NCBI GenBank assembly: GCA_965237905.1
Contig: OZ250172.1
Coordinates: 2,880,001-2,944,000, forward strand
DNA: 64,000 bases
Source: Nitrospinaceae bacterium
GTDB taxonomy: Bacteria; Nitrospinota; Nitrospinia; Nitrospinales; Nitrospinaceae
Reading direction: 5' to 3'
Of this stretch, positions 5,467 through 22,700 are shown piece by piece. Position numbers and translations under genes: made by a program. Below the pieces are notes generated by a model that saw only the letters and a list, made by a program, of their open reading frames with translations, made no database searches and had not been told where the DNA came from. How positions within the stretch are numbered: the stretch's first letter is position 1; each line of letters begins with the position of its first letter.

Positions 5467-6585
5467 CTATCTGAGGGGAATTTCAAACCAGAAGGTCGCT
5501 CCGGAACCCAGTTGGCTGGTCACATTCAGGTGGCCTTCATGAGCCTGAACCATTTTTTTGGAAATGGCCAGTCCCAGACCCGAACTGGATTCCCCGGCGG
5601 TGGGGCGAGCGGATAGTTTCTGAAAATGCTGAAAAAGTTTTTCCTGGTCTTCATCAGAAATCCCCGGCCCTTCATCCTTGACGCTAAAAACCAGTTTTCC
5701 TTCGCGTTCTTCCAAGCTGATAAAAATGGTTGTCCCGGATTCAGAAAATTTAATGGCATTGCTGATCAGGTTATCAATCACCTGGCCCATTTTGTTGGCA
5801 TCGATTCGGCACTTGGGAATGTTCGGCAGCTCGGATTGAATACGGATATTTTTTTTGTCGGCAAAAAACTGGTTGATCATGATGTGATGGTTGATCAGGC
5901 TTTCGAACGATTCGGGTTGAAGATCCAACTGTAGTTTTCCGCTTTCAATGACCGAGACGTCCAGCAGTTCATTGACCATCTGCAACAGATTCTCACTGCT
6001 TTTAAAGATAAAGTCGAGAAATTGGTCTTTGGTTTCCTCAGGCAATTCCTTTTTGTCATCCTTCAGAATCTGGGAGTAACCTTTGATCGCGCTCAGACCG
6101 TTTCTCATATCGTGAGACGCCATTCCCAGGAACTTATTTTTGAGTTCATTAAGCTCGTTCAATTGATCGTTTTTCAATTCCAACTGTTTTATCAATTGCT
6201 GAACTTTCAGGTGGGTTTGGACCCGCGCGAGCACTTCACTGTGGTTAAAGGGTTTGGTGATGTAATCGACCCCTCCCTCTTTGAAACCCTGTATAACGTC
6301 CTCCGGCTCGGCTCGGGCGGTAATGAAAATTACGGGCAGATTGCGCGTGCCTTCCTGGGTTTTCAGCTGGCGGCAGGTTTCAAATCCGTCGATACCCGGC
6401 ATGTTGACATCGAGGAGAATCAGGTCCGGCGCAAACTTCTCTGTGATAGTCAGGGCCTGTGCACCGCTTTGGGCAATAGATATAAGATAGTCCTCTTCCA
6501 GGATTTCTTCCAGGATTCTCAAATTCGTAGGGGTATCATCTACGATTAAGACTTTTGGCTTGTCGGCAGGGCTCGAGTCGTTCAT
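5467..6585 (-). CDS. Hybrid receiver-histidine kinase (REC-HisKA-HATPase)
   Basis: IVDD..LLDVNMP..ITKPF receiver; ASHDMRN H-box; NAIKF, DEGPGI, SGLGL. Confidence 0.93.
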   Translation of the reverse strand: MNDSSPADKPKVLIVDDTPTNLRILEEILEEDYLISIAQSGAQALTITEKFAPDLILLDVNMPGIDGFETCRQLKTQEGTRNLPVIFITARAEPEDVIQGFKEGGVDYITKPFNHSEVLARVQTHLKVQQLIKQLELKNDQLNELNELKNKFLGMASHDMRNGLSAIKGYSQILKDDKKELPEETKDQFLDFIFKSSENLLQMVNELLDVSVIESGKLQLDLQPESFESLINHHIMINQFFADKKNIRIQSELPNIPKCRIDANKMGQVIDNLISNAIKFSESGTTIFISLEEREGKLVFSVKDEGPGISDEDQEKLFQHFQKLSARPTAGESSSGLGLAISKKMVQAHEGHLNVTSQLGSGATFWFEIPLR

Positions 6586-6758: not shown

Positions 6759-8195
6759 ATGGCGAAACCTTTAATATTTGTGGTGGACGACGAACCTGAA
6801 TCCGGCGGCCTGCTCGCCTATTATCTGGAGAAAGCCGGTTATGAGGTGGCGCAGTTTTCCAATGGGCCGGACTGTCTGAAGGCGTTGGACCGCAACCCCA
6901 GCCTCGTTTGTCTGGATATGCAAATGCCGGAGATGGACGGATTGGAGGTTCTCAAACGGATCAAAGCCCAGAACTCCAAATTGGGAGCCATCATGGTTAC
7001 CTCGAATAATGAGGTCGACACGGCAGTTCAGGCGTTGAAACTAGGCGCGGCAGACTACATCATCAAACCCGCGGATCGGGAAAGATTCCTGACGACGGTG
7101 GAGGATACTTTGGATCAGACTCAGTTGGTGGGCCAGATCCGCAATATGGAAAAGGACATGGAAAGCGCTTTCGCCTACAAAAATATTGTGGGAGAGAGCC
7201 AGGCCATCAAGAAGGTGTTCACCCAAATTGAGCAGGTCAAAGACAGCAACGTCAATGTGTATATCAATGGCGAAAGCGGGACGGGTAAGGAACTGGTGGC
7301 GCGCGCCATCCATTTCAGCGGACCGGAGGAGAACCGGCCATTTATCGATATCAATTGTAGCGCGCTGGCCGAAGGACTGTTGGAAACCGAAATGTTTGGA
7401 CATGAAAAGGGGGCGTTTACCGGAGCCATAGGGACCCACCGCGGCAAGCTGGAGTTGGCCGACGGCGGAACTCTGTTTTTCGATGAAATAGCCGACATGA
7501 GCCTCAAGCTTCAGGTCAAGCTTCTCAGGTTTCTGGAGGAGAAAAGTTTTGAAAGGGTGGGGGGCACCAAAAAAATCAAGGTCAACGTAAGAGTGGTTTC
7601 AGCGACCAATAAGGATTTGCAGAAAGAAGTCGAAAAAGGAAATTTTCGCGAGGATTTATATTACCGCCTGGTGGTTTTTACCATTCATGTGCCGCCGCTG
7701 AGAGAAAGAAAGAACGATATTCCGCTTTTGTGTGGCTACCTCCTGAATAAATTTAAAGATGAGCTGAATAAAGAGATTTCCCATATTTCACCCGGCGCCA
7801 TGGATATTCTCAATCATTACCGTTGGCCCGGAAACGTCCGGCAACTGCAGAATGTGATATTGCAATCGATGTTGATGTCGCAGACCAGTACGATTGAAAT
7901 CGAGAATCTTCCCCAGGAAATCCAGAAAGCAGGGGAGGAGGGGGCTACTGCCTCGGTCAAAGGAGAACCTGCTTTGTCTGAGGAAGTGAGAGCATCAGAT
8001 GGAATGGAAACGTCGGAAAACGATCAGGCCGGTTCCAATAGGATTTCCCTGGATGAAGGTGAAAAACAGACTCTCATGAGCGCTCTTAAAATGACCAACT
8101 GGAATATCTCCGAAGCTTCCAACCTTTTAGGTATTAGTCGAACTACCTTTTACCGGAAACTCAAAAAGCATGGGTTGAGCCAGACCCGGGGCTAA
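6759..8195 (+). CDS. Sigma-54-dependent NtrC/Fis-family response regulator (enhancer-binding protein)
   Basis: Receiver domain, GESGTGKE Walker A, GAFTGA, FFDEI Walker B, WPGNVRQL, C-terminal Fis HTH; start taken at MAKPLIFVVDDE. Confidence 0.96.
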   Translation: MAKPLIFVVDDEPESGGLLAYYLEKAGYEVAQFSNGPDCLKALDRNPSLVCLDMQMPEMDGLEVLKRIKAQNSKLGAIMVTSNNEVDTAVQALKLGAADYIIKPADRERFLTTVEDTLDQTQLVGQIRNMEKDMESAFAYKNIVGESQAIKKVFTQIEQVKDSNVNVYINGESGTGKELVARAIHFSGPEENRPFIDINCSALAEGLLETEMFGHEKGAFTGAIGTHRGKLELADGGTLFFDEIADMSLKLQVKLLRFLEEKSFERVGGTKKIKVNVRVVSATNKDLQKEVEKGNFREDLYYRLVVFTIHVPPLRERKNDIPLLCGYLLNKFKDELNKEISHISPGAMDILNHYRWPGNVRQLQNVILQSMLMSQTSTIEIENLPQEIQKAGEEGATASVKGEPALSEEVRASDGMETSENDQAGSNRISLDEGEKQTLMSALKMTNWNISEASNLLGISRTTFYRKLKKHGLSQTRG

Positions 8196-8305
8196 CTGCT
8201 GTCAGAACCCCGGTTTCCAGGGATTAGGGAATCTCCCCAAGACCAACTATCACCTGATCCTTGGTCCGGTTTGAATCCTGAGTTAACCCCTAACGGGTAA
8301 ATCCC

Positions 8306-8341
8306 AAAAAAAAACGCCCGACGGTCAAACCGTCAGGCGTT
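8306..8341 (-). terminator. Intrinsic terminator, cassette 1
   Basis: Minus strand CGCCTGACGG-loop-CCGTCGGGCG followed by a T9 tract. Confidence 0.85.
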
Positions 8342-8359
8342 GGAAGTGCATTGTGCAGA

Positions 8360-8632
8360 TTAGAAACAGTTAGGATACTCACCTATTAAGCCTAAGTCCG
8401 CGCATGTAGGATCCGTATCGGGCTCTTCCACAACCTTCCATTCGGCCTTACCACTCTCAAGGTTAGCCTTTTCCAACCGCATCTCTTCACCATGCGTCAT
8501 GTCATCATCAGCCGTGGTAACCTTCGCGGCTTTTGCAGCTTTGTCAGGACCTGCCAAAGCTGGAGAACCCAGAACCAAACTTACGATAGCTACCATTGCA
8601 ATTTGGAACATCCAAAATTTAGCTTTTTTCAT
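8360..8632 (-). CDS. Small secreted protein, paralog 1 (core type A)
   Basis: Signal peptide ending SPALA, GAGG RBS, C-terminus PTCADLGLIGEYPNCF shared with four neighbours. Confidence 0.88.
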   Translation of the reverse strand: MKKAKFWMFQIAMVAIVSLVLGSPALAGPDKAAKAAKVTTADDDMTHGEEMRLEKANLESGKAEWKVVEEPDTDPTCADLGLIGEYPNCF

Positions 8633-8707
8633 CTTTGTTACCTCTCTCTTAATTAATGACTATAGATCTATATATACCCCAATAAGAGTATTAACTGCTA
8701 TTAATAT

Positions 8708-8724
8708 AGCAGGATGCATGCCAA
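8708..8724 (-). promoter_or_regulatory. Sigma-54 promoter, cassette 1
   Basis: TTGGCATGCATCCTGCT (GG-N10-GC) about 75 nt upstream of the ATG. Confidence 0.85.
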
Positions 8725-9081
8725 CGGATCCCCTAAATATTCAATTTTATTCTACTAATTGAATTTAAACGGATTATTCAGGCATTTTTATTGTTCATAT
8801 GGAATCCTAGTATAGTTTTGAACATATCTAAGGGGATTTTCCGCCAAATTTGGGCTCTGGTTGGACATTATTTGGATATTTTCATGTAGATAATTGATTT
8901 TATTACTTTTAGATCAATAATAGGAATTATCCAAAATTGCTCACTTTAACTCTTTATAATCAAAAGGCTTGTAATTTGGACGGTCAAATGGGTGGGGAGG
9001 GCTCCAGGTAAAAGAGTTGCGGCCTTCGCAGCCACTCCAAAGGGAACACAGGGGGTTTTACTACCATGCAGGGTTTGAACA

Positions 9082-9111
9082 ATGAGCAGAGAGACGGTAA
9101 AAGGGGGTGCC
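9082..9111 (-). pseudogene. Decayed copy of the 3' end of the 12699-14729 kinase gene
   Basis: atgagcagagagacggtaaaagggggtgcc vs atgggcagagagacggtaaaggaggtgcc at 12706-12734 (FTVSL in both). Confidence 0.75.
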
Positions 9112-9125
9112 CTATAAGTCTCCCC

Positions 9126-9211
9126 CAGGCGGGCTCCAAATAACATTTCTCTGGATGAAGGTAAGAAGTAGCCTTCTCTTGAGCGCTCTAAAAATGACCC
9201 GCTGGAATATC
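9126..9211 (+). pseudogene. Decayed copy of the NtrC-gene segment 8025-8108
   Basis: ctggatgaagg...gagcgctct..aaaatgacc..ctggaatatc shared with 8025-8108; further copies at ~10036-10110, ~10921-10996, ~11751-11835. Confidence 0.8.
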
Positions 9212-9229
9212 CTCTAATGGGTGAATCCC

Positions 9230-9265
9230 AAAAAAAAACGCCTAACGGCTCAGCCGTCAGGCGTT
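9230..9265 (-). terminator. Intrinsic terminator, cassette 2
   Basis: Same hairpin plus T tract as cassette 1. Confidence 0.82.
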
Positions 9266-9283
9266 AAAAGTACATTGTGCAGA

Positions 9284-9592
9284 TTAGAAACAATGGGGCC
9301 AAGTACCCAATAGTCCTAAGTCCGCGCATGTAGGATCTGGATCGGGATCAGGATCAGGCTCATCTGCGTGATGTTCAGCGTTGTGCTCGGCCAGTTGTTG
9401 GTCGTGCTGCGCTTGCCAGTGGTCAAGTTTTTCGGGGTGCATGGCAATTTTTTTGTCGAACATTTTTTGATGCTGTTCGTGCCATTTCTCGTCATCAAAT
9501 CCATGACCCTCTGCAAAAACCGGGGATCCAAAAACCAAACTTATGATGGCTACCATTGCGATTTGAGCTAACCAGAATTTAACGTTTTTCAT
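9284..9592 (-). CDS. Small secreted His-rich protein, paralog 2 (core type B)
   Basis: Signal ending SPVFA; (PD)n linker; PTCADLGLLGTWPHCF. Confidence 0.88.
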   Translation of the reverse strand: MKNVKFWLAQIAMVAIISLVFGSPVFAEGHGFDDEKWHEQHQKMFDKKIAMHPEKLDHWQAQHDQQLAEHNAEHHADEPDPDPDPDPTCADLGLLGTWPHCF

Positions 9593-9667
9593 TTTTTTTA
9601 CCTCACCTCTTATTAATAACTATAGATTCACACATACCCCGATAGAAGTATTGCTTGCCCTTGATAT

Positions 9668-9684
9668 AGCAGGATACATGCCAA
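9668..9684 (-). promoter_or_regulatory. Sigma-54 promoter, cassette 2
   Basis: TTGGCATGTATCCTGCT. Confidence 0.85.
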
Positions 9685-10128
9685 GCAAGTACCTAAATGG
9701 GCGATTTTAATCTGCTAATTGAATTGAAGGGGATTATTCAAGGGGTTTTTATTCACATGGAATTTTAATGTAGTTTTTCAGAATATCGGGAACGATATTT
9801 TGGCTAAATTTGTACTCTAATTGGTTTGTTATTTAGACACCCTAATATAAGTGGTTGGCTTGATTTGACTTGGTTGATTGTTAAAGAGGGTACAAAGTTA
9901 TTCACTTTAGCCCTTTATAATCAAAAGCTTGTAATTTGGACAGTTAAATGGGTGAGATGGTTCAAGAAAAATAGAATTGAGGGGTTCTCAGTCACTCGGG
10001 AGAATAAAGGATGCCCTGGCTTGCCATGTTCCAGGAGGCGGGTTCAATAGCATTTCTTTGGGTGAAGGTGAGAAGCAGACTCAACCTGAACGCTTTTAGA
10101 ATGACCACTGAAAAGAAAGGATAACCCC

Positions 10129-10164
10129 AAAAAAAAACACCTGACGGCTCAGCCGTCAGGCGTT
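10129..10164 (-). terminator. Intrinsic terminator, cassette 3
   Basis: CCTGACGGC-TGA-GCCGTCAGG hairpin plus T tract. Confidence 0.85.
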
Positions 10165-10182
10165 AGAAGTGCATTGTGCTCA

Positions 10183-10479
10183 TTAAAAACAATTGGGCCA
10201 AGTACCCATTAAGTCGAAGTCCTCGCATGTAGGATCCGGATTGGGATCATCTGGGTGAAATTCAGCATTGTGCTCGGCAAGTTTGCTGTCGAATACTTCT
10301 TGCCAGTGGGCAGATTTTTCGGGTTGACCAGTAACTTTTTTGTCTAACCATGCATCAAGATTCTCGTGCCATTTTGTGTCATCGAAGTTTTCATCGTCTG
10401 CGAAAACCGGGGACCCAAAGGCTAAACTTACGATGGCTACCATTGCAATTTGAGCTAACCAGAATTTAGCTTTTTTCAT
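10183..10479 (-). CDS. Small secreted protein, paralog 3 (core type B)
   Basis: Signal ending SPVFA; FDDTKWH..HNAEFH core; PTCEDFDLMGTWPNCF. Confidence 0.88.
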   Translation of the reverse strand: MKKAKFWLAQIAMVAIVSLAFGSPVFADDENFDDTKWHENLDAWLDKKVTGQPEKSAHWQEVFDSKLAEHNAEFHPDDPNPDPTCEDFDLMGTWPNCF

Positions 10480-10554
10480 TTTTTTACCTCTCTTCTCTCT
10501 TATGAATGACTATGGATCTATATATACCCCAAGTGGCGTATATATATTAAGTAA

Positions 10555-10571
10555 AGCAGGATGCATGCCAA
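10555..10571 (-). promoter_or_regulatory. Sigma-54 promoter, cassette 3
   Basis: TTGGCATGCATCCTGCT. Confidence 0.85.
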
Positions 10572-11013
10572 TTGAGCACCTGAATGGGCGATTTTAATCT
10601 GGTAATTGAATTTAAAAGGATTATTCAGGCACTCTTTTATCACATGGAATTCCAATGTAGCTTTGAGATATATAGGAGGGGAGCTACTGCCAAACTTGGG
10701 CTCTATTTGGTTGATTATTCAGACACTCTCCGGTAAGTAATTAGTTTTATTAGCTTTAGCTGAATAATGGAAATTGCACAAAATCGCTCACTTTAGCCCT
10801 TTATAATCAAAAGACTTAAAATTTGGGCGGTTAAATGGGTGGGGTGGCTAAAGGAAAAACAGGGTTGTGGGGTTTTCAGTCACCCGTGAGAGTGAAAGAT
10901 GCCCTGGCTTGCCCTAGTCCCAGGCGGGTTCAATAGCATTTTTTTGGGTGAAGGTGAGAAGCAGACTCAACCTGAACGCTTTTAGAATGACCACTGAAGA
11001 GAAAGGATAACCC

Positions 11014-11049
11014 AAAAAAAAACACCTGACGGCTCAGCCGTCAGGTGTT
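11014..11049 (-). terminator. Intrinsic terminator, cassette 4
   Basis: Perfect CACCTGACGGC/GCCGTCAGGTG stem plus T tract. Confidence 0.85.
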
Positions 11050-11067
11050 GGGATTACATTTTACAGA

Positions 11068-11319
11068 TTAGAAACAGTGGGGATAATCACCCACTAAGCC
11101 AAAGTCCTCGCATGTAGGCTCCGGATCGGGAACATCCGCTTGCTTCCATTTGGCATTACCTTCACCAAGATTAGCCTTTTCCAATCGCATCTCCTCACCA
11201 ACGGAAACCTTCGCGGCTTTTTCGGCTTTGTCAGGGCCTGCGAATACAGGGGACCCAAAAGCCAAGCTTACGACAGCTACCATTATAATTTGAACCAACC
11301 AAAAATTAATTTTCTTCAT
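11068..11319 (-). CDS. Small secreted protein, paralog 4 (core type A)
   Basis: GPDKA..GEEMRLEKANL core as in paralog 1; PTCEDFGLVGDYPHCF. Confidence 0.88.
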   Translation of the reverse strand: MKKINFWLVQIIMVAVVSLAFGSPVFAGPDKAEKAAKVSVGEEMRLEKANLGEGNAKWKQADVPDPEPTCEDFGLVGDYPHCF

Positions 11320-11412
11320 ATTTTTACCTCTCTCTTATTATAGATCTATATATACCCTTTTAGGGATATTATATTATATACCCCAAATAGAGTATCTATA
11401 TGCCATAAATAA

Positions 11413-11429
11413 AGCAGGATGCATGCCAA
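11413..11429 (-). promoter_or_regulatory. Sigma-54 promoter, cassette 4
   Basis: TTGGCATGCATCCTGCT. Confidence 0.85.
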
Positions 11430-11614
11430 CCTGGGTCACGAATAGGTTACATTAGTCAACTATTTGAATTTTAAAGGGTTATCCAGGTATTTTCTTATTC
11501 ATATGGGATTCCAGTATAGCTTTGGAGTGCATCAGAAGGGATTTTTTGCCAAATTTGGGTACTGGTTGGACATTATTTAGACATCCTCCTATAAGTAGCT
11601 AATTTTATTAAGTT

Positions 11615-11627
11615 TAACTTATTGATA
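11615..11627 (-). promoter_or_regulatory. IHF-consensus site upstream of the cassette 4 promoter
   Basis: TATCAATAAGTTA matches WATCAANNNNTTR. Confidence 0.45.
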
Positions 11628-11853
11628 GGAATTGCAAAAATTGTTCACTTTGGCTCCTTATAATCAAAAGACTTAAAGTTTGGGCGCTAAATTTGGGTAA
11701 GGATGGCTAAGGTAAAACAGGGTTGTTGTCTTCGAAGTGACTCGAAGTCCCAGACGGGTTCCAGTAGTATTTCGCTGGATGAAGGCGAGAAGCAGACTCT
11801 CCGGAGGTTTTTAAAATGACCCACTGTGGAATATCCCCTAACGAGCAAATCCC

Positions 11854-11891
11854 AAAAAAAAACGCCTGACGGCTCTCAGCCGTCAGGCGTT
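11854..11891 (-). terminator. Intrinsic terminator, cassette 5
   Basis: CGCCTGACGGC/GCCGTCAGGCG stem plus T tract. Confidence 0.85.
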
Positions 11892-11909
11892 GGAAGTGCA
11901 TTGTGCGGA

Positions 11910-12281
11910 TTAGAAACAATTGGGGTAAGTACCGATTAAGTCAAAGTCCGCGCATGTAAGAACCGGATCGGAAACGGTTGCATCTACATGGTATTTAGCG
12001 TTGTGCTTTTCCTTTTTTGCTTCGTGCTTTGCTTCCCATTTCGAAAATTTTTCCAATTCCTTAGTTTCCTTTTTCATCAGTTTATCGCCATCGTACTTCG
12101 CACGAATTTTTTCAAGCTTTGCTTTGTGCTTATCTTCTTTTTTATCCTTTTTTACTTGCCACTTATCGTGCCATGCGTTGTCATCGAAGTTATGATCTGC
12201 CAATACGGGAGAACCCCCCATAACCAGGCCTACGATAGCTACCATTGCAATTTGAAGCATCCAAAATTTAGCTTTTTTCAT
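11910..12281 (-). CDS. Small secreted Lys-rich protein, paralog 5 (expanded core type B)
   Basis: Signal ending SPVLA; FDDNAWH..HNAKYH core; LTCADFDLIGTYPNCF. Confidence 0.88.
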   Translation of the reverse strand: MKKAKFWMLQIAMVAIVGLVMGGSPVLADHNFDDNAWHDKWQVKKDKKEDKHKAKLEKIRAKYDGDKLMKKETKELEKFSKWEAKHEAKKEKHNAKYHVDATVSDPVLTCADFDLIGTYPNCF

Positions 12282-12352
12282 CTTGTCACCTCTCTTGTGA
12301 ATGACTATAGATCTATATATACCCCTAAAAGGGTATTAATTATCATAAATGA

Positions 12353-12369
12353 AGCAGGATGCATGCCAA
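12353..12369 (-). promoter_or_regulatory. Sigma-54 promoter, cassette 5
   Basis: TTGGCATGCATCCTGCT. Confidence 0.85.
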
Positions 12370-12698
12370 TTGAGTAGCTAAATGATCAATTTTAATAGGG
12401 TATCTGAATTTAAAGAGATTATTCGGACATTTTTTTGTTCACATGGAGTTCTAGTGGACACATCGGAGGGGATTTTCTGCCATATTTAAGCTTGGTTGAT
12501 TGATTATTTAGACAGCCTCATGTAGGCAATTGGTTTTATTATTTTTAACTCAGTGATGGGAATTGCAAAAATTGTTCACTTTGGCTCCTTATAATCAAAA
12601 GGCCTGTAATTTGGGAGGGTAAATTTGGGTAAGGATGCTTGAGTTAAAACAGAGTCGTGGTCTTCGCAGTCACTCAAAGGGAACATAGGGGTGTACGG

Positions 12699-14729
12699 CT
12701 ATATCATGGGCAGAGAGACGGTAAAGGAGGTGCCTTTTCCACATTGGGAATCCACTTCGATGATTCCTCCGTGAGTTTGAACGATGCCATGGGTGACCCA
12801 TAGTCCCAGGCCGGTTCCCTCCGCCTTGGATTTGGTGGTAAAAAAGGGCTCAAAGATATTCTTTCGGATTTTTTCTGTCATTCCGATTCCATTATCCTGA
12901 ACCGTGAAATATAAATGGGAGTTCTGATGGTGCGTGCTCAAGCTGATTTCTCCCCCCGTTTCGGGAATGGCATCCATCGCATTTTGAAACAGATTCAGGG
13001 CGACTTGCCTGATCTGGTCCGGAAACGCCGATACTTCCGGAAGCACGTCGCTGTAATGGGTTTTGAGGTGGATGTTTCGGTCCGCCAATTCCTTCTGAGC
13101 CAATAAAACAATTTCCTCCAGGACGTGATTGATCTGTACCGGTTCTTTATTTTCCCGGGTGGGACTGAAGAAGTTATTGAGCCGGCGAGTCAGTTTAGCG
13201 ATCCGGTCGGTTTCGCTGATGGCCATGTCTATAAAACGTTCATCCGCTTCCTTCAGAGGAACACACATTTTAGTTCGTTCCAGAACGTTACGGATACCAA
13301 AGAGAGGATTGTTGATTTCATGGGCAATCGAGGCAGAGAGTTTGCCGATAGAAGACAGCTTTTCCGCATGTAACAGTTGTTCCTGATAGATTTTCAGTTT
13401 CTCCTCGGCCTGTTTTCTCTCCGTTATATCTTGAACAATTCCTCTTAATTTCTGTGGCTTTCCTTGTTCGTTATAGAAAGTTTTGCATTCTTGATGGACT
13501 GTTCGAAGGGTTCCATCGGGCAACACGATTCGATGATCTATGCTGTAGTTCTCTTTATTTTCCAGGATTTCTTTGTTGGTGTTATCGACGAATTCGCGGT
13601 CTTCCGGATGAACCGTATTTAAAAATGCCTGGTAGGAGGCATTGAATTCTTTGGGGCGAAGGCCGAAGATCCGGTAGACTTCATCGGACCACCATAATTC
13701 GTCTGTTTCAATATCGTAAACCCAGTTCCCCATTTTCCCGATTCTCTGTGCGATGGAAAGTTCGCGTTCGCTGTGTCTTAATGCTTCCTCTACTGTTTTG
13801 CGTTCGGTGATGTCCTGGACAATTCCGCGGGCTTTCAGGGGGTTGTCCAGGTCATCCAGAAAGACTCTCGATTCTTCATAAATGATTCTCTCCGTGTCGT
13901 CGGGTAATGGAATCCGGTATTCAACCTGGTGTCCTCTACCGGTGCGGAAGGATTCCTGATGAGACGCATCCACTCTCTGGCGATCGTCGGGATGGATTAA
14001 TTTTAGAAAAGCCTTATAGGTTCCTTGAAATGTTTGTGGACTGGTTTCGAAAATCTGATGCGTTTCATTGGACATTCTGATTTCATGGGTGCTCATGTTA
14101 TAAACCCAGCTGCCCAACCGCGCTATTTTCTGGGCCAGCGCCATATCCCATTCGCTTTGAATGAGTTCCTTTTCGACCATTTTTTGCTGGGTGATATCTC
14201 TCCCGGACAATAGAATTCCCTTGGTCGAACCTTCCGTGTTCTTTAAAGCGAGACCTTCCCATTCGATGAGGTGTTCTTCCTCTTTTTTATTGATGGTGGG
14301 TATGACGATGTAACCGATAGAGTCTTCCTCTCCGGAAAACAATTTTTGGAGTGATTGCAAGGCGCTCGTCCGCATGGAAGGGGTCACAAAACGTTCGAAC
14401 CAGTTTTCTCCGATTATTTTTTTATGAGGATATCCTAAAGCTTTGCAACCGGCTTTGTTGATGGTTTGGATTTTATGATCTTTCCCCAGGCTGATAATAA
14501 TATCGTTAGAGAGATGAATGATGTTTTCAATGTTGGTGCCTGTGAAATCCCGGGTAATTATCTTCAGAGGAGAAATGATCTGCGAGGAGATTTCAGCCGT
14601 TGTTTTACTTTTCTTTGCGGGTTCCGAGGAATTGTTTTTGGACGGGGAATGAGTGGCGGTGCCACGTTTGGACGGTTTTTGTCTTTTGGTAGCAGGCTTT
14701 TTCATAGAGGTGGAAACCGGTTTTACCAA
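12699..14729 (-). CDS. Cytoplasmic multi-PAS histidine kinase (NtrB-like); start uncertain (14729 or 14705)
   Basis: Three PAS/PAC domains, IAHEINNPL H-box, NAMDA, DNGIG, PFFTTK, GTGLGL. Confidence 0.93.
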   Translation of the reverse strand: MVKPVSTSMKKPATKRQKPSKRGTATHSPSKNNSSEPAKKSKTTAEISSQIISPLKIITRDFTGTNIENIIHLSNDIIISLGKDHKIQTINKAGCKALGYPHKKIIGENWFERFVTPSMRTSALQSLQKLFSGEEDSIGYIVIPTINKKEEEHLIEWEGLALKNTEGSTKGILLSGRDITQQKMVEKELIQSEWDMALAQKIARLGSWVYNMSTHEIRMSNETHQIFETSPQTFQGTYKAFLKLIHPDDRQRVDASHQESFRTGRGHQVEYRIPLPDDTERIIYEESRVFLDDLDNPLKARGIVQDITERKTVEEALRHSERELSIAQRIGKMGNWVYDIETDELWWSDEVYRIFGLRPKEFNASYQAFLNTVHPEDREFVDNTNKEILENKENYSIDHRIVLPDGTLRTVHQECKTFYNEQGKPQKLRGIVQDITERKQAEEKLKIYQEQLLHAEKLSSIGKLSASIAHEINNPLFGIRNVLERTKMCVPLKEADERFIDMAISETDRIAKLTRRLNNFFSPTRENKEPVQINHVLEEIVLLAQKELADRNIHLKTHYSDVLPEVSAFPDQIRQVALNLFQNAMDAIPETGGEISLSTHHQNSHLYFTVQDNGIGMTEKIRKNIFEPFFTTKSKAEGTGLGLWVTHGIVQTHGGIIEVDSQCGKGTSFTVSLPMI

Positions 14730-14867: not shown

Positions 14868-15686
14868 TCATTTCTTTAACAAAAAACTGAATCCCAGGAT
14901 TGCTATAAATGTGATACCGAAAGCACACACCAGGGTTGAACCTGTCGGCAAATCAAAAATAAAGGAAAGACCCAATCCGGCCCAACTGACCAGGATAGCC
15001 ATGAGAGTCCCTACCCAGAGTTGTTTTCCCAGGGAATCATACAATTGGATGGCACAGGCGGCGGGGATGATCAGCAGAGTGAAAATGAGGAAAATACCCG
15101 CTGTTTGAATGCACGCCACAATAGCCAGCCCCAACATCAGATAAAAAACGAAATCCCAAAGCCCTCTTTTTTGGGTATAAGGCTCCGGCGAGTTCGCCTG
15201 ATCCGTGCATTGGATAAACGGTTTTCGGATCGCCCACAGGAAACCTGCGAGGATGGTAAAGGCTGTCAAGAGTTGCAGGACCCCTCCCCATGAAATCCAT
15301 AAAATGGATCCATTCAAAGTATGTTGGATATGTTCGGCCGCACGGGGAGAGCGGTCGGCAATGATCACGGCCAATGAGGCGGCGACCACGTAAACGATGC
15401 CAATCACCCCTTCCTGAGATATCCGGGGTGCCATAAATCGTACAAGGGTGAAGAATGAGGCTCCTATGAAAACAAACCCAATGGAAACCAGAATTGTTCC
15501 GAAAGAATGCTCCTCCAGGTTCAGGGCGAAAGCCACCGTGGTGCCCAGTGCGGCCAGTTGCGCCATGGACAGATCGATAAAAACTATGCCGCGTTTCAGA
15601 ACGTGGATGCCGAAGTAGGTGAAGATGAATGACATCACCATGCATCCCAGCGCCGGAGCGGCCATGAATGTTATAAAATCACTCAT
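14868..15686 (-). CDS. Metal (Zn/Mn) ABC transporter permease, ABC-3 family
   Basis: GIHVLKRGIVFIDLSMAQLAALG; multiple TM helices; start MSDF overlaps the stop of the binding-protein gene. Confidence 0.85.
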   Translation of the reverse strand: MSDFITFMAAPALGCMVMSFIFTYFGIHVLKRGIVFIDLSMAQLAALGTTVAFALNLEEHSFGTILVSIGFVFIGASFFTLVRFMAPRISQEGVIGIVYVVAASLAVIIADRSPRAAEHIQHTLNGSILWISWGGVLQLLTAFTILAGFLWAIRKPFIQCTDQANSPEPYTQKRGLWDFVFYLMLGLAIVACIQTAGIFLIFTLLIIPAACAIQLYDSLGKQLWVGTLMAILVSWAGLGLSFIFDLPTGSTLVCAFGITFIAILGFSFLLKK

Positions 15687-16629
15687 TCTCTGAAAGTGCC
15701 TCAGTGATTTGATTGACGAGGGTATCAAACAGCCCAATGGTATCGTGGGCTTCGGGTACGCCACCGACGCCCGGAGGCAAGGTCAGGACCCGTGCGCCGG
15801 TTTTGCCGGCCAGCAGATTGGAGAATTTATCCTGATAGTAATTGGCTTGCAGAATCAGGCTGACATTTTTCTGCCTCATCCTTTGCGCCAGGCCGGACAG
15901 ATGGCTGGGGGAGGGTTGAATGCCGGGTTTCGGTTCCACCGTCCCAATGCGGGTCAATTGGAAGTACCGGAGAAAATAGCTCCAGGTGCGGTGATACGTC
16001 ACCACCGGAGTGTTGGCAAACGGCTCCATTTGCTTTTTCCATTCATTTAATTTTAATTCATATTTTTTCAAAAACTGTTTTCTGTTGGCTTTGATCTGTG
16101 ACGAGTGCGCCGGCAACATTTTGGAAAGATGATCGGCGATTAAATAGACAATCGGTTTTATATTGCCCGGATCCAATGTGTAATGCGGGTTGCCGAAGGG
16201 ATGCACGTCACCCATGGAACGGTCCAGTTTGCCCTGCGGAATTTCGATCGGGTCGATCGCCAAAGAGAGATCGAGATGCCCCGGTTTGCCCAACTGAATG
16301 TCCGGATTGCGCGCGCCTCGCAGTAATAGGGGAAGCCAACCCACCTCCAGTTCCAATCCTTGATAGATAAGGAGGTTGGCTTGGTGCATCTTCAGCATCA
16401 GGCTCGGTTTGGCCTGCACAAAATGCGTGTCCTGATAACCCCGCGTCAGGCTTTCCACTTCGACCAGGTCCTGGCCCACCGCTTGGACGAGCGAGGCAAT
16501 ATCCTGCGTGGTGGTGACAACTTTGAGTTGGGCGTTGGCTTCGCCCTTGAAGGTCAGGAGTAACAGCAGGGCTGAGAGCCAGAGGAACGTTGGCTTTATT
16601 TTCTGATTCCAAAATTCCATCGTCATCAA
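15679..16629 (-). CDS. Metal ABC transporter substrate-binding protein (ZnuA/TroA family)
   Basis: Signal peptide, VVTTT, QDTHF, GDVHPFGNPHY, TYH, PSPSHL. Confidence 0.9.
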   Translation of the reverse strand: MMTMEFWNQKIKPTFLWLSALLLLLTFKGEANAQLKVVTTTQDIASLVQAVGQDLVEVESLTRGYQDTHFVQAKPSLMLKMHQANLLIYQGLELEVGWLPLLLRGARNPDIQLGKPGHLDLSLAIDPIEIPQGKLDRSMGDVHPFGNPHYTLDPGNIKPIVYLIADHLSKMLPAHSSQIKANRKQFLKKYELKLNEWKKQMEPFANTPVVTYHRTWSYFLRYFQLTRIGTVEPKPGIQPSPSHLSGLAQRMRQKNVSLILQANYYQDKFSNLLAGKTGARVLTLPPGVGGVPEAHDTIGLFDTLVNQITEALSENE

Positions 16630-17924
16630 TACCGGTGCGCGGGATGCGATCCCAGCGAGAAGTTCAATTGAAGCAGGACCTGATGCTCGTTGGAGATGTC
16701 TTCGTCAATATAATTGTATTGGAGCCGAATGGCTGAAAATTCGCTGGGCACATATCCCAGCAATGCGGTGTATCTTTGTTGATCGTTGGCGGCATCCGGC
16801 TGGTGGAATCCGAAATAACCATAGCGGGCCTGCACCCACCATTGCTCGGCGAATTGATATTGAACATAGGAATACATGCCGCCTTTGTTGTCGTCGGGAT
16901 TGTCCAGTCCCGATAAGGCATTGACCCCGGTTTCTTTCCATGCCCCGATATATTCCGACTGCCAGACCAATGTTTTGTAGCGGGCCTGCCGGGCCGGTTT
17001 CCATTTCAGGGTGAGGTTGGCCCCGGCGACTTGGGTGGTTCGGTTGCGATTTCCCAAAGCGGATCCCGTGCCGTTTCTACCCGTTGAAAAAGATCCTCCA
17101 ACTTCCAGGGTGGTGTCCTCATTCAGGTCCCACAGATTGCGCGAATGAAAGATGTAGGCGAAGTCATCATTGAGCGGCGCGTCGAACAGATTGACATTGT
17201 CGCCTTCCACAAATTCAAAAATCCATTCCGAATACCAGGGCAGGGGCATCAGGTAACTGAAGCCTGCGCCAACTTCCAAGAATGCTTCCTTGCCAAAAAT
17301 TTCTTTGTTGACCAACGGGACATCAATAAAAGGAAATTGATGAGTGTGCAGAAGATTGTGCTTTCCCAAATGGGTGTAGAACTGGCCGGCTCTTAAGGCG
17401 AGGCGGTCGAACAGTAACAGGTCGACAAAGCTTTCCTCAATTTCCACTTCGTCATCTTCAAACGAAATACGAAAATTGGCGCGGAGGTAGGTATCCACAT
17501 TGGCGGTAAACTGCACCTCCATTTCCTGGATGTCCAGCCCCGTTTTGACGTCGGCGTTGGGATTATTGTTTTCAATCGAACGATAGGTACCGAGAAACAG
17601 TCCATTGACACTGATCGCCGGGTTGAATGTCCGACTGAGACCCGTGGAAGTAGCAAACGCCGAATCGGCCGAGCTTCCCGTGACGCGGGGCATGCGCGGA
17701 AAAGGAACCGAAACCGGCCCCTCTTTCTTCATGGGATCGGAAGCGGATTCGGACTCCGGCGCTGTGGGTACGCTCTGCCCCTTCTCTATCCTTTGTATTC
17801 TTCTTTCCAGGCGCTTGATCTGCTCCTGGAGCTCATAAATGTCCTCTTTGGCCTCCTGCGCGCAGGTATGGGTTGCGCTTGCAAGGCATACCAAAATGAA
17901 AAGGACAATGCCAGACCATTTCAT
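16626..17924 (-). CDS. Outer-membrane beta-barrel protein of the metal uptake operon
   Basis: GGAGG RBS, signal peptide, N-terminal coiled coil, beta-strand pattern, His motifs HNLLHTHQF and terminal GSHPAHRY. Confidence 0.72.
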   Translation of the reverse strand: MKWSGIVLFILVCLASATHTCAQEAKEDIYELQEQIKRLERRIQRIEKGQSVPTAPESESASDPMKKEGPVSVPFPRMPRVTGSSADSAFATSTGLSRTFNPAISVNGLFLGTYRSIENNNPNADVKTGLDIQEMEVQFTANVDTYLRANFRISFEDDEVEIEESFVDLLLFDRLALRAGQFYTHLGKHNLLHTHQFPFIDVPLVNKEIFGKEAFLEVGAGFSYLMPLPWYSEWIFEFVEGDNVNLFDAPLNDDFAYIFHSRNLWDLNEDTTLEVGGSFSTGRNGTGSALGNRNRTTQVAGANLTLKWKPARQARYKTLVWQSEYIGAWKETGVNALSGLDNPDDNKGGMYSYVQYQFAEQWWVQARYGYFGFHQPDAANDQQRYTALLGYVPSEFSAIRLQYNYIDEDISNEHQVLLQLNFSLGSHPAHRY

Positions 17925-18078
17925 GGGTCCTCCAGACAAAATTGGTTTCAATATTTAATTGAAGTTATTTGAATTTGTGAATTCGAGTAACGAAATTCAC
18001 AGCAAATTTAATATCTTCCTCTGGTTATTGAAAATGTGGGTACCATTAGCCAGGGGAAAATTTTGAAATTCAAATGAG

Positions 18079-18381
18079 TTAACTGGAAAGAGAGGGAGGA
18101 CTGCGTCCAAAATAGGGCGAAATGATTTTTTGAAAGGTGATGCGTTCCGATACAGGCGGAGAGACGACCGTCAGCCATGATTCGACGGTCAAGTCCGGCA
18201 CATCCATATCGAGGCTGACTGAAGTTTGGGTCCAGTGGCAGGGGGCGCAATCTTCGTCGGTCGTAAAATGATCGAACTCGTGGTCGTGCAGGAAGGTAGA
18301 AAACGCAGCCATAATGCTGAAGCTGATTAATATGAAACCAGCGAAAGTGAAGCGGCGCTTTTTATTTTTAAACAAACTCAT
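18079..18381 (-). CDS. DUF2946-like leader protein with His/CxxC site and C-terminal RSPP motif
   Basis: TM/signal segment, HDHEFDH..CAPCH, ends GRSPPSLSS; first gene upstream of the metal uptake genes. Confidence 0.72.
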   Translation of the reverse strand: MSLFKNKKRRFTFAGFILISFSIMAAFSTFLHDHEFDHFTTDEDCAPCHWTQTSVSLDMDVPDLTVESWLTVVSPPVSERITFQKIISPYFGRSPPSLSS

Positions 18382-18618
18382 ATCAGGTTTAATGAGAAAC
18401 AGGTCGGATGGCTGTCTGGAGAATCCCAAACCGCCGTTAATATCAGCTTTAGATGGTATGAGATTATTTAGGATTTGTAAATGTAGAAGATTTTTTGGAA
18501 GAAGGAGAAGAGGGTAGGAGCCTCCTCCCTAAAAGGGAGGAGGATTGACTGGCTTATCCCAGAGGGGAGGTGAAGATCCGTCCTTGGCCAGGGGCTTCAG
18601 AAGAGGAGGTAAATAGAT

Positions 18619-19739: not shown

Positions 19740-22700
19740 TTAAGAGCCCCCATTTTGGTTCAAGGGCTGTTTGAGAGGGAGAGTGACGGTGAAGGTGGTG
19801 CCTTCACCCGGCGTGCTGTGGACGTCAATTTCCCCTTTATGGTTTTTAACGATGCCTAGTGATGCCAGCAAGCCCAGTCCGGGCCTATGGATGGCAGATT
19901 TAGTGGTGAAAAAGGGATCAAAAATTCGATCCATATCGGCCTCTGTAATCCCGCATCCGGTATCTTGAATATGGATTTTTACGTTTGACCCTTCCTGCTC
20001 GGTGGAAATAATTATTTTGCCTTCGTCCTCGCTTAAAGACTCCTCGGCATTTTTGACAATATTATCGATTGCCTGGCGAATTTGCGGGGTGACACCGTCA
20101 ACGGCAGGCAGACCCTTCGCGTAATTTCTTTCCAGGGTGATCGTGTGATCCTTGGCGATATCCTTATTATTCTGGATGACCTCGTCGAGAATCTGATGGA
20201 CGTCCAATGATTCCAGGTTTTCCTTAGTCGGAGGCTGAAAACCTTTCAGTCTGCTGATCAGGTCTGCGACTCTCCGGCACTCGTTCACGGCAACGGTAAT
20301 CAGTCCTTTGTGAATATCCGCCATTTCGGCCTGTTTCTTGACCTGTTTCAGAATATTTTCAATCCCCTGAATGGGATTGTTGACCAGGTCAACTACGGAA
20401 GAGGTGATATGGTCCACCATATTTAATTTTTCCTCGCGAAGAGCCATCTTTTGTCCCTCGCTCTGTTTTAAAACATCCTTGAACTGGTATTGTTTCTCAT
20501 TCAGGGTTTTTTCAAATTGCTCCTGACTTTCCTTTTCTTTTTCCTCAAGCAGGACCGCCTTGTCCACAATTGAATTCAATAAATATTCGCTTTCACGTGA
20601 TTTGTTTTGGGCGTTTCGCAAATCGGTAATATCCTGGCCTACGGCTAAAAATCCCCGAACCGTTTCATCTTCTGGGTCGATTTCCTTGGCGAGGCTCCAT
20701 AAAAAAGAATGCTTGATCTCGTCACTCAGCATGGTTTGTGTTTCCAAATCCGCGGAGTCCTGGGTATTCATGCGTTTCTGAATATCCGAGGACACTGCTT
20801 GCCAGTTTTCTTGGGGTAAAATTGTCTCAAAGAAATGTTTTTCCAGAGTGTCTTCCCGGTTCCATTGGAAAGTGGATTCGGCTTTTTCACTCATATCGAA
20901 AATAAGGTAGTCCGGAGAAAGAGTGACCAGGATTAACCCAGAATTGCCCAGCAAAGTGGCGAACTGCTTTTTGATGGATTTGATTTCATCCTCATTTTTC
21001 ACATCAGAAAGGTTGGTCAAATAACCCAGAGTGGTGACGATACCATTTCTGTTCTTGAAAGACGCCATGCTTATTAGAGCTTTAAACACTTCTCCATCGG
21101 ATTTCCTGATTGGGATTTCGAGCCGATGCTTGAAATTCTTCTTGAGGGGAGCCAGAAATTCATTTTCAAAATCGAAGGAGTCCCTTTCGGCAAATATGAA
21201 TGAAATGGATTGATTCAGTGCCAGTTCAGAAATATGTCCTGTGAGAGATTCGGCTGTTTGGTTCCACGACAATATGGTTCCATCTTGATCCAAGGTAAAT
21301 AATGGAAGGTCCATTTGCTCGTAGTGAACGGCTTTTTCTTTGGATTCTTCGATGAGGTAACTCTTTTCCTTGATATCCGACATTAATTGCTCGTTGGCAA
21401 TTCCCAAGCTTTCTAATTCCTGTTGGGTATCCTCGAGTTGGATGCTGTGAGTAAAAAATTCTTCCTGGACTTTTCTGAGCTCTTCCAATTCTGCCAGCAT
21501 GACTTGATTTGCCGTTTCCAGAACTTCTATATCTTTCTTATGTTTGGTGATGGACTCCTGAACTTCATTTAAATTCTTCTGCAGTTGAGTTTTAGCGGAT
21601 TTTTCCTCTTCAAAGCTTTTTCGAAAAGATTTGATCTCGTCATCCTTCTTGGAGATTTCGGTTTTGAACTTTTCGCTTTCTGCAGTCGTTAATTCCCCGG
21701 TCCTGGATTTAAGTTGGGAACGCAGGGTAGTCAGTTCGGTTTCTTTTTTCTGAAGCGCATTACGCATTTCTTCGAGTTCTTTTGCCTGCGCAGGTGTTGG
21801 AGAGCCTGGCTGGCCGCCAAGTAAAGGTTTCTTTTGATTAGCTTTCGTGTCGGGTTTGTCTTTGCTTCCTCCGCCTGCCTTTGCCAGGAGTTTTTCCAAT
21901 TCAAGGGACTTTTCTTTCAATTCAGACGTCAATTGGGATTGAGTCCGTTCCATACTCTTGATCTTCTGCTGGAACTCCCTTTCAAAGGACTCCCTTACTT
22001 TTACCAATTCCTTATCAATGGAAGGTTTAGTTTCTTGTGCAGGAACTTTGGAAACTTTAGGTTTCTCCGAGGTTTTTTCGAGAGAGGGTTGGGGGAGGTC
22101 TGTTTCAGGCTGGATTCCCGTGATCTTCTCTAAAGAGTGGGCGATTTCCGCTCCAAACTGAGGTTCTAATGAAGAGGGTGGATTTGTTATCGATGATATC
22201 AAGCGGGCCATAACTTTGATAATGCTGATCTCGTCATTGTCCCATTTTTTTTCTTTTTGATTCGATTCGAATCCAATGTAACCCACAGCAGAATCATTGT
22301 GGATGATAGGTACGTTGATCAGCGATTTGACTCCCTGAGAAAGGTACATCTCTTTTTCAGAGGAAGCGTCCTTAGGCATCGCGTCTATTTTAGGGACGTG
22401 TATGATCTCTTTTTTTTGAATATTTTTTTTGAACCATGGAAAATTGTCCAGGGAGATTTCTTCCTCACGGTCAGGTTCCAGCATCGGTTCACCGGAAACC
22501 CACAGATGAGTGTTGATCATGTGCGACCTGGACGGGGTGAATTTAAATATATAGCCGTGCTCGATATTTGAAAGTTCGCCAAATAATTCCAGTGCTTTTT
22601 GAATTCGGTTTTTAATGTCTTCCGGATTTTTTATTTGCTCTGGTGATAAACCCATTAGAGTGTTTTCCAGCTCAAACCAGAATTTAAACCGTGACCTGGC

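What the first reader, a model, noticed from the sequence alone, without database searches (positions are those of the whole stretch)
8300..12700. Tandem array of five self-contained expression cassettes for secreted mini-proteins: candidate undescribed system
Seen: five ~0.9-kb minus-strand units. Each has a sigma-54 promoter, a GAGG RBS, an 83-123 aa ORF and a conserved terminator hairpin. All five proteins share a 27-28 aa Sec signal (MKKxKFW..QIxMVA..GSPxxA), a variable core, a Pro/Asp linker and a conserved Cys-containing tail. The array is wedged between a GAFTGA-bearing sigma-54 activator and a multi-PAS kinase, with two more hybrid kinases beyond. Inference: a signal-inducible, diversifying family of exported small proteins (surface or matrix components, metal binders, or signalling/antagonistic peptides). 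I do not recognise the family.
Basis: partly seen in the sequence, partly recalled or inferred. Interest (0 to 1): 0.92.

Follow-up and report, generated by a model that had tools for sequence, protein, structure and literature searches.

The report
Strain-swapped exported mini-protein gene cassettes
In one genus of uncultured bacteria of the nitrite-oxidiser family Nitrospinaceae, one to five self-contained genes for small proteins with an export signal sit between a sensor kinase and a sigma-54 activator; their middle parts are likely swapped between strains while their cysteine-paired tails stay alike within a genome, and they likely form a switchable, strain-specific set of protective binding proteins in the cell envelope.

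Summary
The array is real: five units, each with a sigma-54 box, ribosome site, 83-123 aa ORF and terminator. The family (154 sequences) matches no Pfam, NCBIfam or PDB entry; among 120 genomes of the phylum it was found in one Nitrospinaceae genus only (7 of 11; 0 of 109 others), with 1-5 copies in the same kinase/activator slot. (1) All four spacers carry a decayed activator|kinase junction at a shared 12-bp microhomology, so the array arose by tandem duplication. (2) The Cys tail is not conserved across the genus: at least six tail types combine with about seven core types; here tails match each other best, while promoters and signals match other genomes equally well. (3) Three cores fold as a His-bearing helical hairpin, two look disordered. 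Function is untested; no RNA run was available. Best reading: an inducible, polymorphic set of envelope binding proteins (0.4). The scan had no look-alike on other DNA, only notes on similar layouts.

The parts
12699..14729 (-). 3xPAS histidine kinase, no transmembrane segment; likely the sensor
   Evidence: Pfam PAS_3 x3, HisKA, HATPase_c; hydropathy peak 0.86; upstream of a cassette in G001, G002, G005, G007, G008, L034, L035, L038
12807..12818 (-). 12-bp microhomology in the kinase 3' end, identical to 8025-8036
12353..12368 (-). sigma-54 -24/-12 box, unit 1
11910..12281 (-). unit 1 ORF, 123 aa, Lys/His/Trp helical core, two-Cys tail
11853..11891 (-). terminator hairpin and T-run, unit 1 (ends approximate)
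11751..11841 (+). decayed copy of the activator's 3' end (80% identity), ending at the junction
11413..11428 (-). sigma-54 box, unit 2
11068..11319 (-). unit 2 ORF, 83 aa, RLxxAN-type core
11013..11049 (-). terminator, unit 2 (ends approximate)
10884..10993 (.). best-kept hybrid junction: activator remnant 10921-10993 joined to kinase remnant 10884-10931
10555..10570 (-). sigma-54 box, unit 3
10183..10479 (-). unit 3 ORF, 98 aa, acidic helical-hairpin-type core
10128..10164 (-). terminator, unit 3 (ends approximate)
10036..10107 (+). decayed activator 3' remnant (81%)
9668..9683 (-). sigma-54 box, unit 4
9284..9592 (-). unit 4 ORF, 102 aa, His-rich (10 His) helical-hairpin core
9229..9265 (-). 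terminator, unit 4 (ends approximate)
9085..9211 (.). junction: activator remnant 9126-9211 (81%) and kinase 3'-end remnant about 9085-9111
8708..8723 (-). sigma-54 box, unit 5
8360..8632 (-). unit 5 ORF, 90 aa, RLxxAN-type core, predicted largely disordered
8304..8341 (-). terminator, unit 5 (ends approximate)
8025..8036 (-). 12-bp microhomology in the activator's 3' end
6759..8195 (+). NtrC-type sigma-54 activator (REC-AAA+-HTH_8, GAFTGA, receiver Asp kept); likely drives the five promoters
   Evidence: 83-90% orthologues only in genus g1, best elsewhere 51%
5467..6585 (-). REC-histidine kinase, divergent from the activator, no transmembrane segment; candidate relay step
   Evidence: beside the activator in G001, G002, G005, G008, G010, L035
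3375..5339 (-). membrane-anchored PAS-HK-REC hybrid kinase; neighbour, not a constant part
   Evidence: at this place in G008 but not in G001, G002, G010, L035

Best explanation
The locus is a set of five separately promoted genes that the neighbouring kinase/NtrC-type activator likely switches on together through sigma-54, making small proteins predicted to be exported by Sec and likely acting as a strain-specific mix of protective binding proteins in the periplasm or on the cell surface. Shown by sequence: promoter boxes, terminators, protein-level selection on signals and cores, the four-part build (signal, core, acidic/Pro/Gly linker, two- or four-Cys tail), birth of this array by duplication at a 12-bp microhomology, and a mosaic of cores and tails. 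Inferred: a cytoplasmic cue is read by the PAS kinase and relayed to the activator; the signal is cleaved; the tail closes as a disulfide hairpin and serves as a common docking or assembly module; the core is the interchangeable working end (in units 1, 3, 4 a helical hairpin whose conserved His/Asp could bind a metal ion; in units 2, 5 a disordered segment); strains exchange promoter-signal-core blocks by recombination at the linker, and an outside pressure (phages, predators, rival kin, or varying metals) keeps many types in circulation.
For: 21 of 21 cassettes in 12 loci keep a GG-N10-GC box 79-110 nt before the start; rpoN is in the genome; the activator orthologue is confined to the same genus as the cassettes: 7 of 10 other g1 genomes, 6 of them with a cassette match and G003 with the family terminator at its contig end. 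Terminator stems show two-sided changes at 3 of 9 pairs in 19 cassettes. Signal pN/pS 0.37-0.38; five core pairs 0.4-0.8, while the gene remnants in the spacers decayed to about 80% with frameshifts. No Cys in residues 15-35 in 153 of 154 and no twin Arg. Even Cys count in 145 of 154; last Cys within 5 residues of the end in 136 of 148. In this genome each tail's four best matches are the other four units (78-85% against at most 65% outside), whereas promoters and signals often match other genomes best. Helical-type core: two His and a Lys invariant, and Asp, Trp, His nearly so, in 20 sequences; AlphaFold2 hairpin with pLDDT 87-97 over residues 11-50. One secretin only, and no relative of the L035 barrel in 21 genomes of the family, so a periplasmic or surface-held product is the default.
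Against: No expression, location or binding data. Core types show no profile-level homology to each other, so one function for all is an assumption. 26 of 154 mature parts have no His. No DsbB or VKOR match in the genome, though secreted-like proteins show an even-Cys bias, 63 of 100 against 439 of 1003 (crude heuristic). Tail sharing is not universal: G008 has two pairs of tail types, L035's two copies differ, and 2 of 5 contig-length-matched pairs differ. The promoter+signal tree is mostly unresolved (2 of 18 branches starred). Activator-promoter pairing rests on co-location and co-occurrence in related genomes only. G010's cassette lies at a contig start, not shown in the slot.
Confidence: 0.4

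Rival explanations
1. The proteins are precursors: after export the core is cut off near its N-A-x-aromatic end and the disulfide tail is released as a strain-specific signal or antibacterial peptide (signal / pro-region / Cys-rich peptide, as in conopeptide or bacteriocin precursors; comparison recalled).
For: Tail tends to be genome-specific. An N-A-x-[FWYH] or [GD]-K-A-x-W motif closes the core in 52 of 106 sequences (4.2 shuffled; pattern chosen after looking) and in 37 of 44 found later (2.4 shuffled; that set is enriched for Asn/Ala cores). In L035 one cassette carries a double-Gly leader-like motif (TIGR04149, 22.2 bits, below its cut-off of 25) beside a C39 peptidase and a FapF-like barrel.
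Against: The double-Gly motif is in 1 of 154. No protease, modifying enzyme, exporter or immunity gene lies in the slot in G000, G001, G002, G005, G008. The two constant kinases have no membrane segment, so no receptor for an outside peptide; the membrane kinase is missing at this place in 4 of 6 loci. Cores keep invariant residues and a confident fold, more than a discarded pro-region needs.
Confidence: 0.25
2. They are dedicated periplasmic metal sponges or stress chaperones that work like SilE or ZraP; the variation is only the relaxed drift of low-complexity proteins and the array raises dosage.
For: Conserved His in the hairpin type; His/Met-bearing start of the disordered type; 128 of 154 have His and 65 have three or more; a ZnuA/ABC-3 uptake system lies beyond the kinase in G000, G002, G008, L035. 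ZraR drives periplasmic ZraP from a sigma-54 promoter (PMC4987338, passages); SilE is a disordered His/Met sponge (PMC5008109, abstract).
Against: No sequence match to those families. The sensor has no periplasmic part. Drift does not explain discrete, well-kept core types recombined with discrete tails; pI spans 4 to over 10. G001 lacks the Zn system next to the kinase.
Confidence: 0.2
3. They are subunits or accessories of a secreted fibre or matrix, left from a Fap-like (C39 peptidase + FapF barrel) system still whole in L035.
For: L035, the most divergent locus (kinase 61%, activator 79%), has C39 peptidase and FapF/FilC-like barrel genes directly before the cassettes; FapD is a periplasmic C39 protease whose likely target FapE has GG/GA motifs (PMC5557850, passages). 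Many cores are Asn/Ala-rich.
Against: Seen in 1 of 9 loci where the kinase-to-cassette stretch is held (G000, G001, G002, G005, G007, G008, L034, L035, L038); the barrel query found nothing in 21 family genomes; the barrel scores 51 bits against a FapF cut-off of 700; I saw no Fap-type Asn/Gln repeats in the alignments.
Confidence: 0.1
4. The array is a by-product: one modest gene was amplified by a microhomology accident and the copies are drifting.
For: The duplication mechanism needs no selection; three genomes do with one copy.
Against: All five ORFs, boxes and terminators are intact while the co-duplicated gene remnants decayed; pN/pS below 1; G008's four-copy array shows no such remnants at E 0.01, which points to a separate expansion.
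Confidence: 0.05

Closest known systems
PEP-CTERM genes under PrsK/PrsR (PMC1569441, passages read)
   Same: Many single-gene units for exported proteins, each behind a large intergenic region with a sigma-54 site and an NtrC-like activator; variable body with a short C-terminal module.
   Different: No PEP motif, transmembrane helix or basic cluster at the C-terminus; soluble sensor; activator 389 bits against the TIGR02915 cut-off of 503; genes clustered at the regulator; far smaller proteins.
ZraSR-ZraP (PMC4987338, passages read)
   Same: Two-component sigma-54 activator beside its target, a small periplasmic protein with possible metal binding.
   Different: No match to ZraP or its Pfam family; activator 365 bits against the ZraR cut-off of 760; sensor without membrane segments; 1-5 polymorphic targets rather than one conserved gene.
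Staphylococcus aureus lpl tandem cluster (PMC2568036, abstract read)
   Same: Tandem paralogues of exported proteins whose 5' and 3' parts are shuffled by recombination between strains.
   Different: Those are lipoproteins shuffled at a conserved centre; these lack a lipobox, each has its own sigma-54 promoter and terminator, the crossover zone appears to be the low-complexity linker, and tails are alike within a genome.
Fap system FapD/FapE/FapF (PMC5557850, passages read)
   Same: In L035 only: C39 peptidase, FapF-like barrel and a Sec-signal protein with a GG motif.
   Different: Absent from this locus in the window's genome and the other loci; scores far below the FapF cut-off; no amyloid repeats seen.
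Bd0108 of the Bdellovibrio hit locus (PMC3818213, passages read; lead from e1-7728852)
   Same: Small predicted-Sec, probably periplasmic protein.
   Different: No YD-repeat partner or pilus genes in the slot; I did not compare sequences directly.

Membership tests
PEP-CTERM / exosortase substrates | C-terminal PEP motif + transmembrane helix + basic cluster | tested here: not met
   All five end in C-x(10)-C-F without a hydrophobic helix; a regex finds one true PEP-CTERM protein elsewhere in the genome, none here; no NCBIfam hit
PEP-CTERM / exosortase substrates | Single-gene units with a sigma-54 site and an NtrC-like activator | tested here: met
PEP-CTERM / exosortase substrates | PrsK transmembrane kinase and PrsR | tested here: not met
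   TIGR02916 108 bits against 300, TIGR02915 389 against 503; no membrane segment
ZraP/Spy/CpxP periplasmic accessory proteins | Sequence match to the family profiles | tested here: not met
   No such Pfam or NCBIfam hit for the five, nor Pfam hit for 49 + 19 members
ZraP/Spy/CpxP periplasmic accessory proteins | Chaperone or Zn-binding activity | not testable with these tools
   needs purified protein
SilE-type metal sponges | Disordered His/Met-motif protein that folds on binding metal | tested here: inconclusive
   Unit 5 model mostly without structure, pTM 0.23; His at the core start in most of its type; no SilE profile hit; binding untested
Double-glycine-leader RiPPs / bacteriocins | GG leader motif | tested here: not met
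   0 of the 5 units; 1 of 154 family members
Double-glycine-leader RiPPs / bacteriocins | C39 peptidase, transporter or modifying enzyme in the locus | tested here: not met
   None in the slot; the genome's only PF03412 hit is a distant gene in another context; present only in L035
Fap functional amyloid | FapF barrel + FapD peptidase in the operon | tested here: not met
   Not in the window's locus; barrel query blank in 21 genomes, without a positive control genome
Fap functional amyloid | Amyloid fibre formation | not testable with these tools
   needs ThT, EM
Lpl-type tandem lipoproteins | Lipobox Cys | tested here: not met
   No Cys in residues 15-35 in 153 of 154
Bd0108-like hit-locus proteins | Sequence homology and a YD-repeat partner | tested here: inconclusive
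   No partner gene in the slot; no direct sequence comparison made
Any solved fold | Specific structural match of the hairpin core | tested here: inconclusive
   Best Z 5.5 (rmsd 3.9, 56 aligned), level with unrelated hairpins

The most novel reading that the evidence does not exclude
A bacterial 'mix-and-match' envelope library: a regulatory chassis (sigma-54 promoter, signal, terminator) carries interchangeable cores traded between strains, all capped by a strain-specific disulfide tail that works as a self tag, so that only products with matching tails dock or co-assemble, giving kin-specific surface identity or protection against phages and predators in an uncultured nitrifier lineage.
Probability: 0.15. 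Interest if true: 0.85.

Novelty: new variant of a known kind. Interest (0 to 1): 0.55.

Why it matters
It is an unannotated protein family with about 150 distinct members, nearly all singletons at 90% identity, under its own genus-specific regulator in a family of nitrite oxidisers. That much polymorphism with discrete swapped modules usually marks an interaction with something outside the cell, so it points to an unknown pressure (phage, predation, kin, metals) on these bacteria. The array also keeps an unusually clear record of its birth: a 12-bp repeat shared by the ends of two convergent genes. The regulatory logic itself (sigma-54 activator driving exported proteins) is known, and no function is shown.

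Tried and rejected
No RNA holder listed: says nothing on expression. Homodimer + Zn prediction of the hairpin type: no answer, score 0.00, controls not folded; not used either way. Foldseek search of the PDB was not run; the VIA wide search gave only generic hairpins; the unit 5 model was too poor to search. Pfam, NCBIfam, PDB-sequence and ESM Atlas searches gave only weak hits to signal or low-complexity stretches. No relative of 343-2000 aa among 8000 candidates (weak evidence; lengths of about 271-342 were covered only). A profile of the Asn/Ala types found 44 more members and nothing between E 7.5e-8 and 1, so my recollection of similar Asn/Ala motifs in other bacteria's secreted proteins was not borne out. 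Tail and core HMMs hit nothing else in the genome: the tail is not a genome-wide sorting tag. Homology between core types was not detected by hhalign despite the shared short motif. A 5'-UTR hairpin pairs in 92.7% of cells but has no two-sided change and does not beat shuffles (18 of 21 UTRs given): unproven. No clear activator binding site was pinned down; four conserved upstream blocks were scanned without a convincing second target. The PAS ligand could not be told. 'Signal more conserved than normal' is only partly supported: two neighbouring exported proteins have 12-31% N-terminal identity but a third has 81-91%. An assembly artefact is unlikely. Literature searches listed no paper on this family; subscription papers are not covered and no supplements were opened.


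Full report
Observation. The five units are as described: minus-strand ORFs of 123, 83, 98, 102 and 90 aa, each with a GG-N10-GC box, a GAGG site and a hairpin with T-run. The box pattern occurs 6 times in the window against 0.24 by chance. A similar pattern has 16 hits in the 3.09-Mb genome, five of them here; two others precede genes that I recognise by sequence (from recall) as flgB and a type IV pilin, typical sigma-54 targets. rpoN is present. Contigs of two public runs of one sample cover the region at 99%+ identity and without joints; they may be the source, so this checks the assembly and is no independent support.

Distribution. Record titles and protein names point to Nitrospinaceae; one short contig (L038) is filed under Gammaproteobacteria and the L035 protein under Saccharibacteria, but both carry the same kinase, so I take them as mis-binned (inference). 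A 49-sequence profile matched 7 of 11 genomes of the window's genus and 0 of 109 other genomes of the phylum. The activator has 83-90% orthologues in 7 of the 10 other genomes of that genus and at most 51% elsewhere; the three genomes without it are 70-78% complete and also lack a cassette. In the six long loci with both flanks the slot holds 5 (G000), 4 (G008), 2 (L035), 1, 1 and 1 (G001, G002, G005) cassettes. Three protein searches gave 154 distinct sequences with those from loci, 46-270 aa, median 107, some of them fragments; one further hit (P0102, E 2.4e-4) looked unrelated and was left out. No family library, solved structure or Atlas cluster explains them.

How the array arose. Each of the four spacers holds a decayed, frameshifted piece of the activator's 3' end (80-81% identity) and two also hold pieces of the kinase's 3' end. 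The kinase (12807-12818) and the activator (8025-8036) share an exact 12-bp stretch on the same strand, and all four spacers switch from activator-like to kinase-side sequence at a worn copy of it. So one recombination between the ends of two convergent genes duplicated the whole intergenic cassette, and further unequal crossing-over likely multiplied it (inference). G008's array shows no such remnants and probably expanded separately.

Protein build. All have a basic-hydrophobic-AxA signal (read by eye; SignalP not available), no lipobox Cys in 153 of 154 and no twin Arg. Signals are under purifying selection (pN/pS 0.37 within, 0.38 between genomes), five core pairs give 0.4-0.8 (short regions, no distance correction). 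Mean identity to this genome's copies is 65-77% for signals and 31-33% for mature parts in four genomes whose kinases and activators are 82-90% identical. Mature parts sort, by hand-made patterns, into about seven core types and at least six tail types, in many combinations; for example the helical and the RLxxAN cores each occur with both the G-YPxC and the four-Cys GG-W tail (110 sequences, with some misfiled or unsorted rows). Cys number is even in 145 of 154. The helical type keeps two invariant His and near-invariant Asp, Trp, His and folds as a two-helix hairpin; from the helix register these residues could meet at the open end, but I had no coordinates to measure this. The RLxxAN type has six invariant residues and is predicted mostly unstructured, with a short hairpin at the tail. 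A short N-A-x-aromatic motif ends many cores, but profiles of the core types do not align.

Module swapping. For each of this genome's five units the four closest tails are the other four units (78-85% against at most 65% outside), and 3' UTRs mostly follow. For promoters the best match is another genome's cassette in 3 of 5 units, and for signals foreign copies rank first or second in 3 of 5 (19 of 21 cassettes used, two run off their contigs). L032's two copies share a tail type with different cores. Three of five pairs of proteins with equal longest-contig length (a weak proxy for one contig) share tails at the 99th percentile of all pairs; two do not; G008 splits two and two; L035's pair differs. 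Import of foreign promoter-signal-core blocks and later homogenisation of tails both fit; the tree could not decide.

Regulation and location. The PAS kinase and the REC-kinase have no membrane segment, so the cue is likely cytoplasmic; its nature is unknown. G003, G007, G010 and L035 add a sigma-54-boxed kinase-like/receiver gene after the activator, which this genome lacks at the locus. The genome has one secretin, two exosortase-like genes and partial CsgG-family hits in another context; none is linked to the cassettes. DsbB and VKOR were not found, yet secreted-like proteins favour even Cys counts, so disulfides are plausible, not shown.

L035. In the most divergent locus a C39 peptidase and a FapF/FilC-like barrel precede two cassettes, and the first carries a double-Gly motif behind the family signal. 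This shows that the chassis can carry a different cargo and is the main support for the precursor and Fap-like rivals, but it is 1 of 9 informative loci and 1 of 154 proteins.

Verdict. What is shown is a genus-limited family of polymorphic proteins with export signals in self-contained sigma-54-type units, born here by microhomology duplication and reshuffled between core and tail. It is laid out like PEP-CTERM/PrsKR or ZraSR-ZraP (passages of PMC1569441 and PMC4987338) and evolves like the lpl cluster (abstract of PMC2568036), but fails membership in each. I judge a protective envelope binding role most likely (0.4), ahead of peptide precursors (0.25), plain metal sponges (0.2), fibre subunits (0.1) and by-product (0.05). 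Papers seen: passages of PMC5557850, PMC3818213, PMC4987338, PMC1569441; abstracts of PMC5008109, PMC2568036; others as search listings only; no supplements opened. Searches listed nothing on this family.

Noticed in passing
L035:5170-8306: C39 peptidase + FapF/FilC-like barrel + family-signal protein with a double-Gly motif, inserted between the kinase and a second cassette; a Fap-like export unit using this cassette chassis.
   Followed up: partly
L063:1604-2800, L079:303-1463, L066:1190-1954, L035:8425-9549: A sigma-54-boxed HisKA-HATPase-receiver gene after the activator whose phospho-His position looks replaced (read by eye); absent at this locus in G000, G001, G002, G005, G008. Possible feedback regulator.
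   Followed up: partly
window 12317-12336 and matching places in the other units: Possible 7-bp hairpin near the predicted transcript start with an invariant GGGTA 3' arm; 92.7% paired but no covariation. Unit 2 carries it twice.
   Followed up: partly
window 14868-18429: ZnuA-type binding protein, ABC-3 permease, an outer-membrane-type protein and a small Cys/His protein: probable Zn/Mn uptake unit next to the kinase, also in G002, G008, L035.
   Followed up: partly
window 23986-26925: PilB/GspE-type ATPase with two N-terminal GAF domains and MshEN.
   Followed up: no
window 19740-23444: 1234-aa histidine kinase with PAS, GAF and a long charged, probably coiled-coil, middle.
   Followed up: no
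window 40153-40168 (-): A sixth sigma-54-type box match, target not examined.
   Followed up: no
G000:C1 2339488-2340596 and 952008-955693: Two exosortase-like genes: one beside a 95-aa protein with a C-terminal transmembrane tail, one beside a PEP-CTERM protein.
   Followed up: no
G000 whole genome: No DsbB or VKOR match, yet an even-Cys bias in secreted-like proteins: the route of disulfide formation is unexplained.
   Followed up: partly
L017:10719-11159: G008's third cassette holds the helical hairpin core twice in tandem.
   Followed up: no
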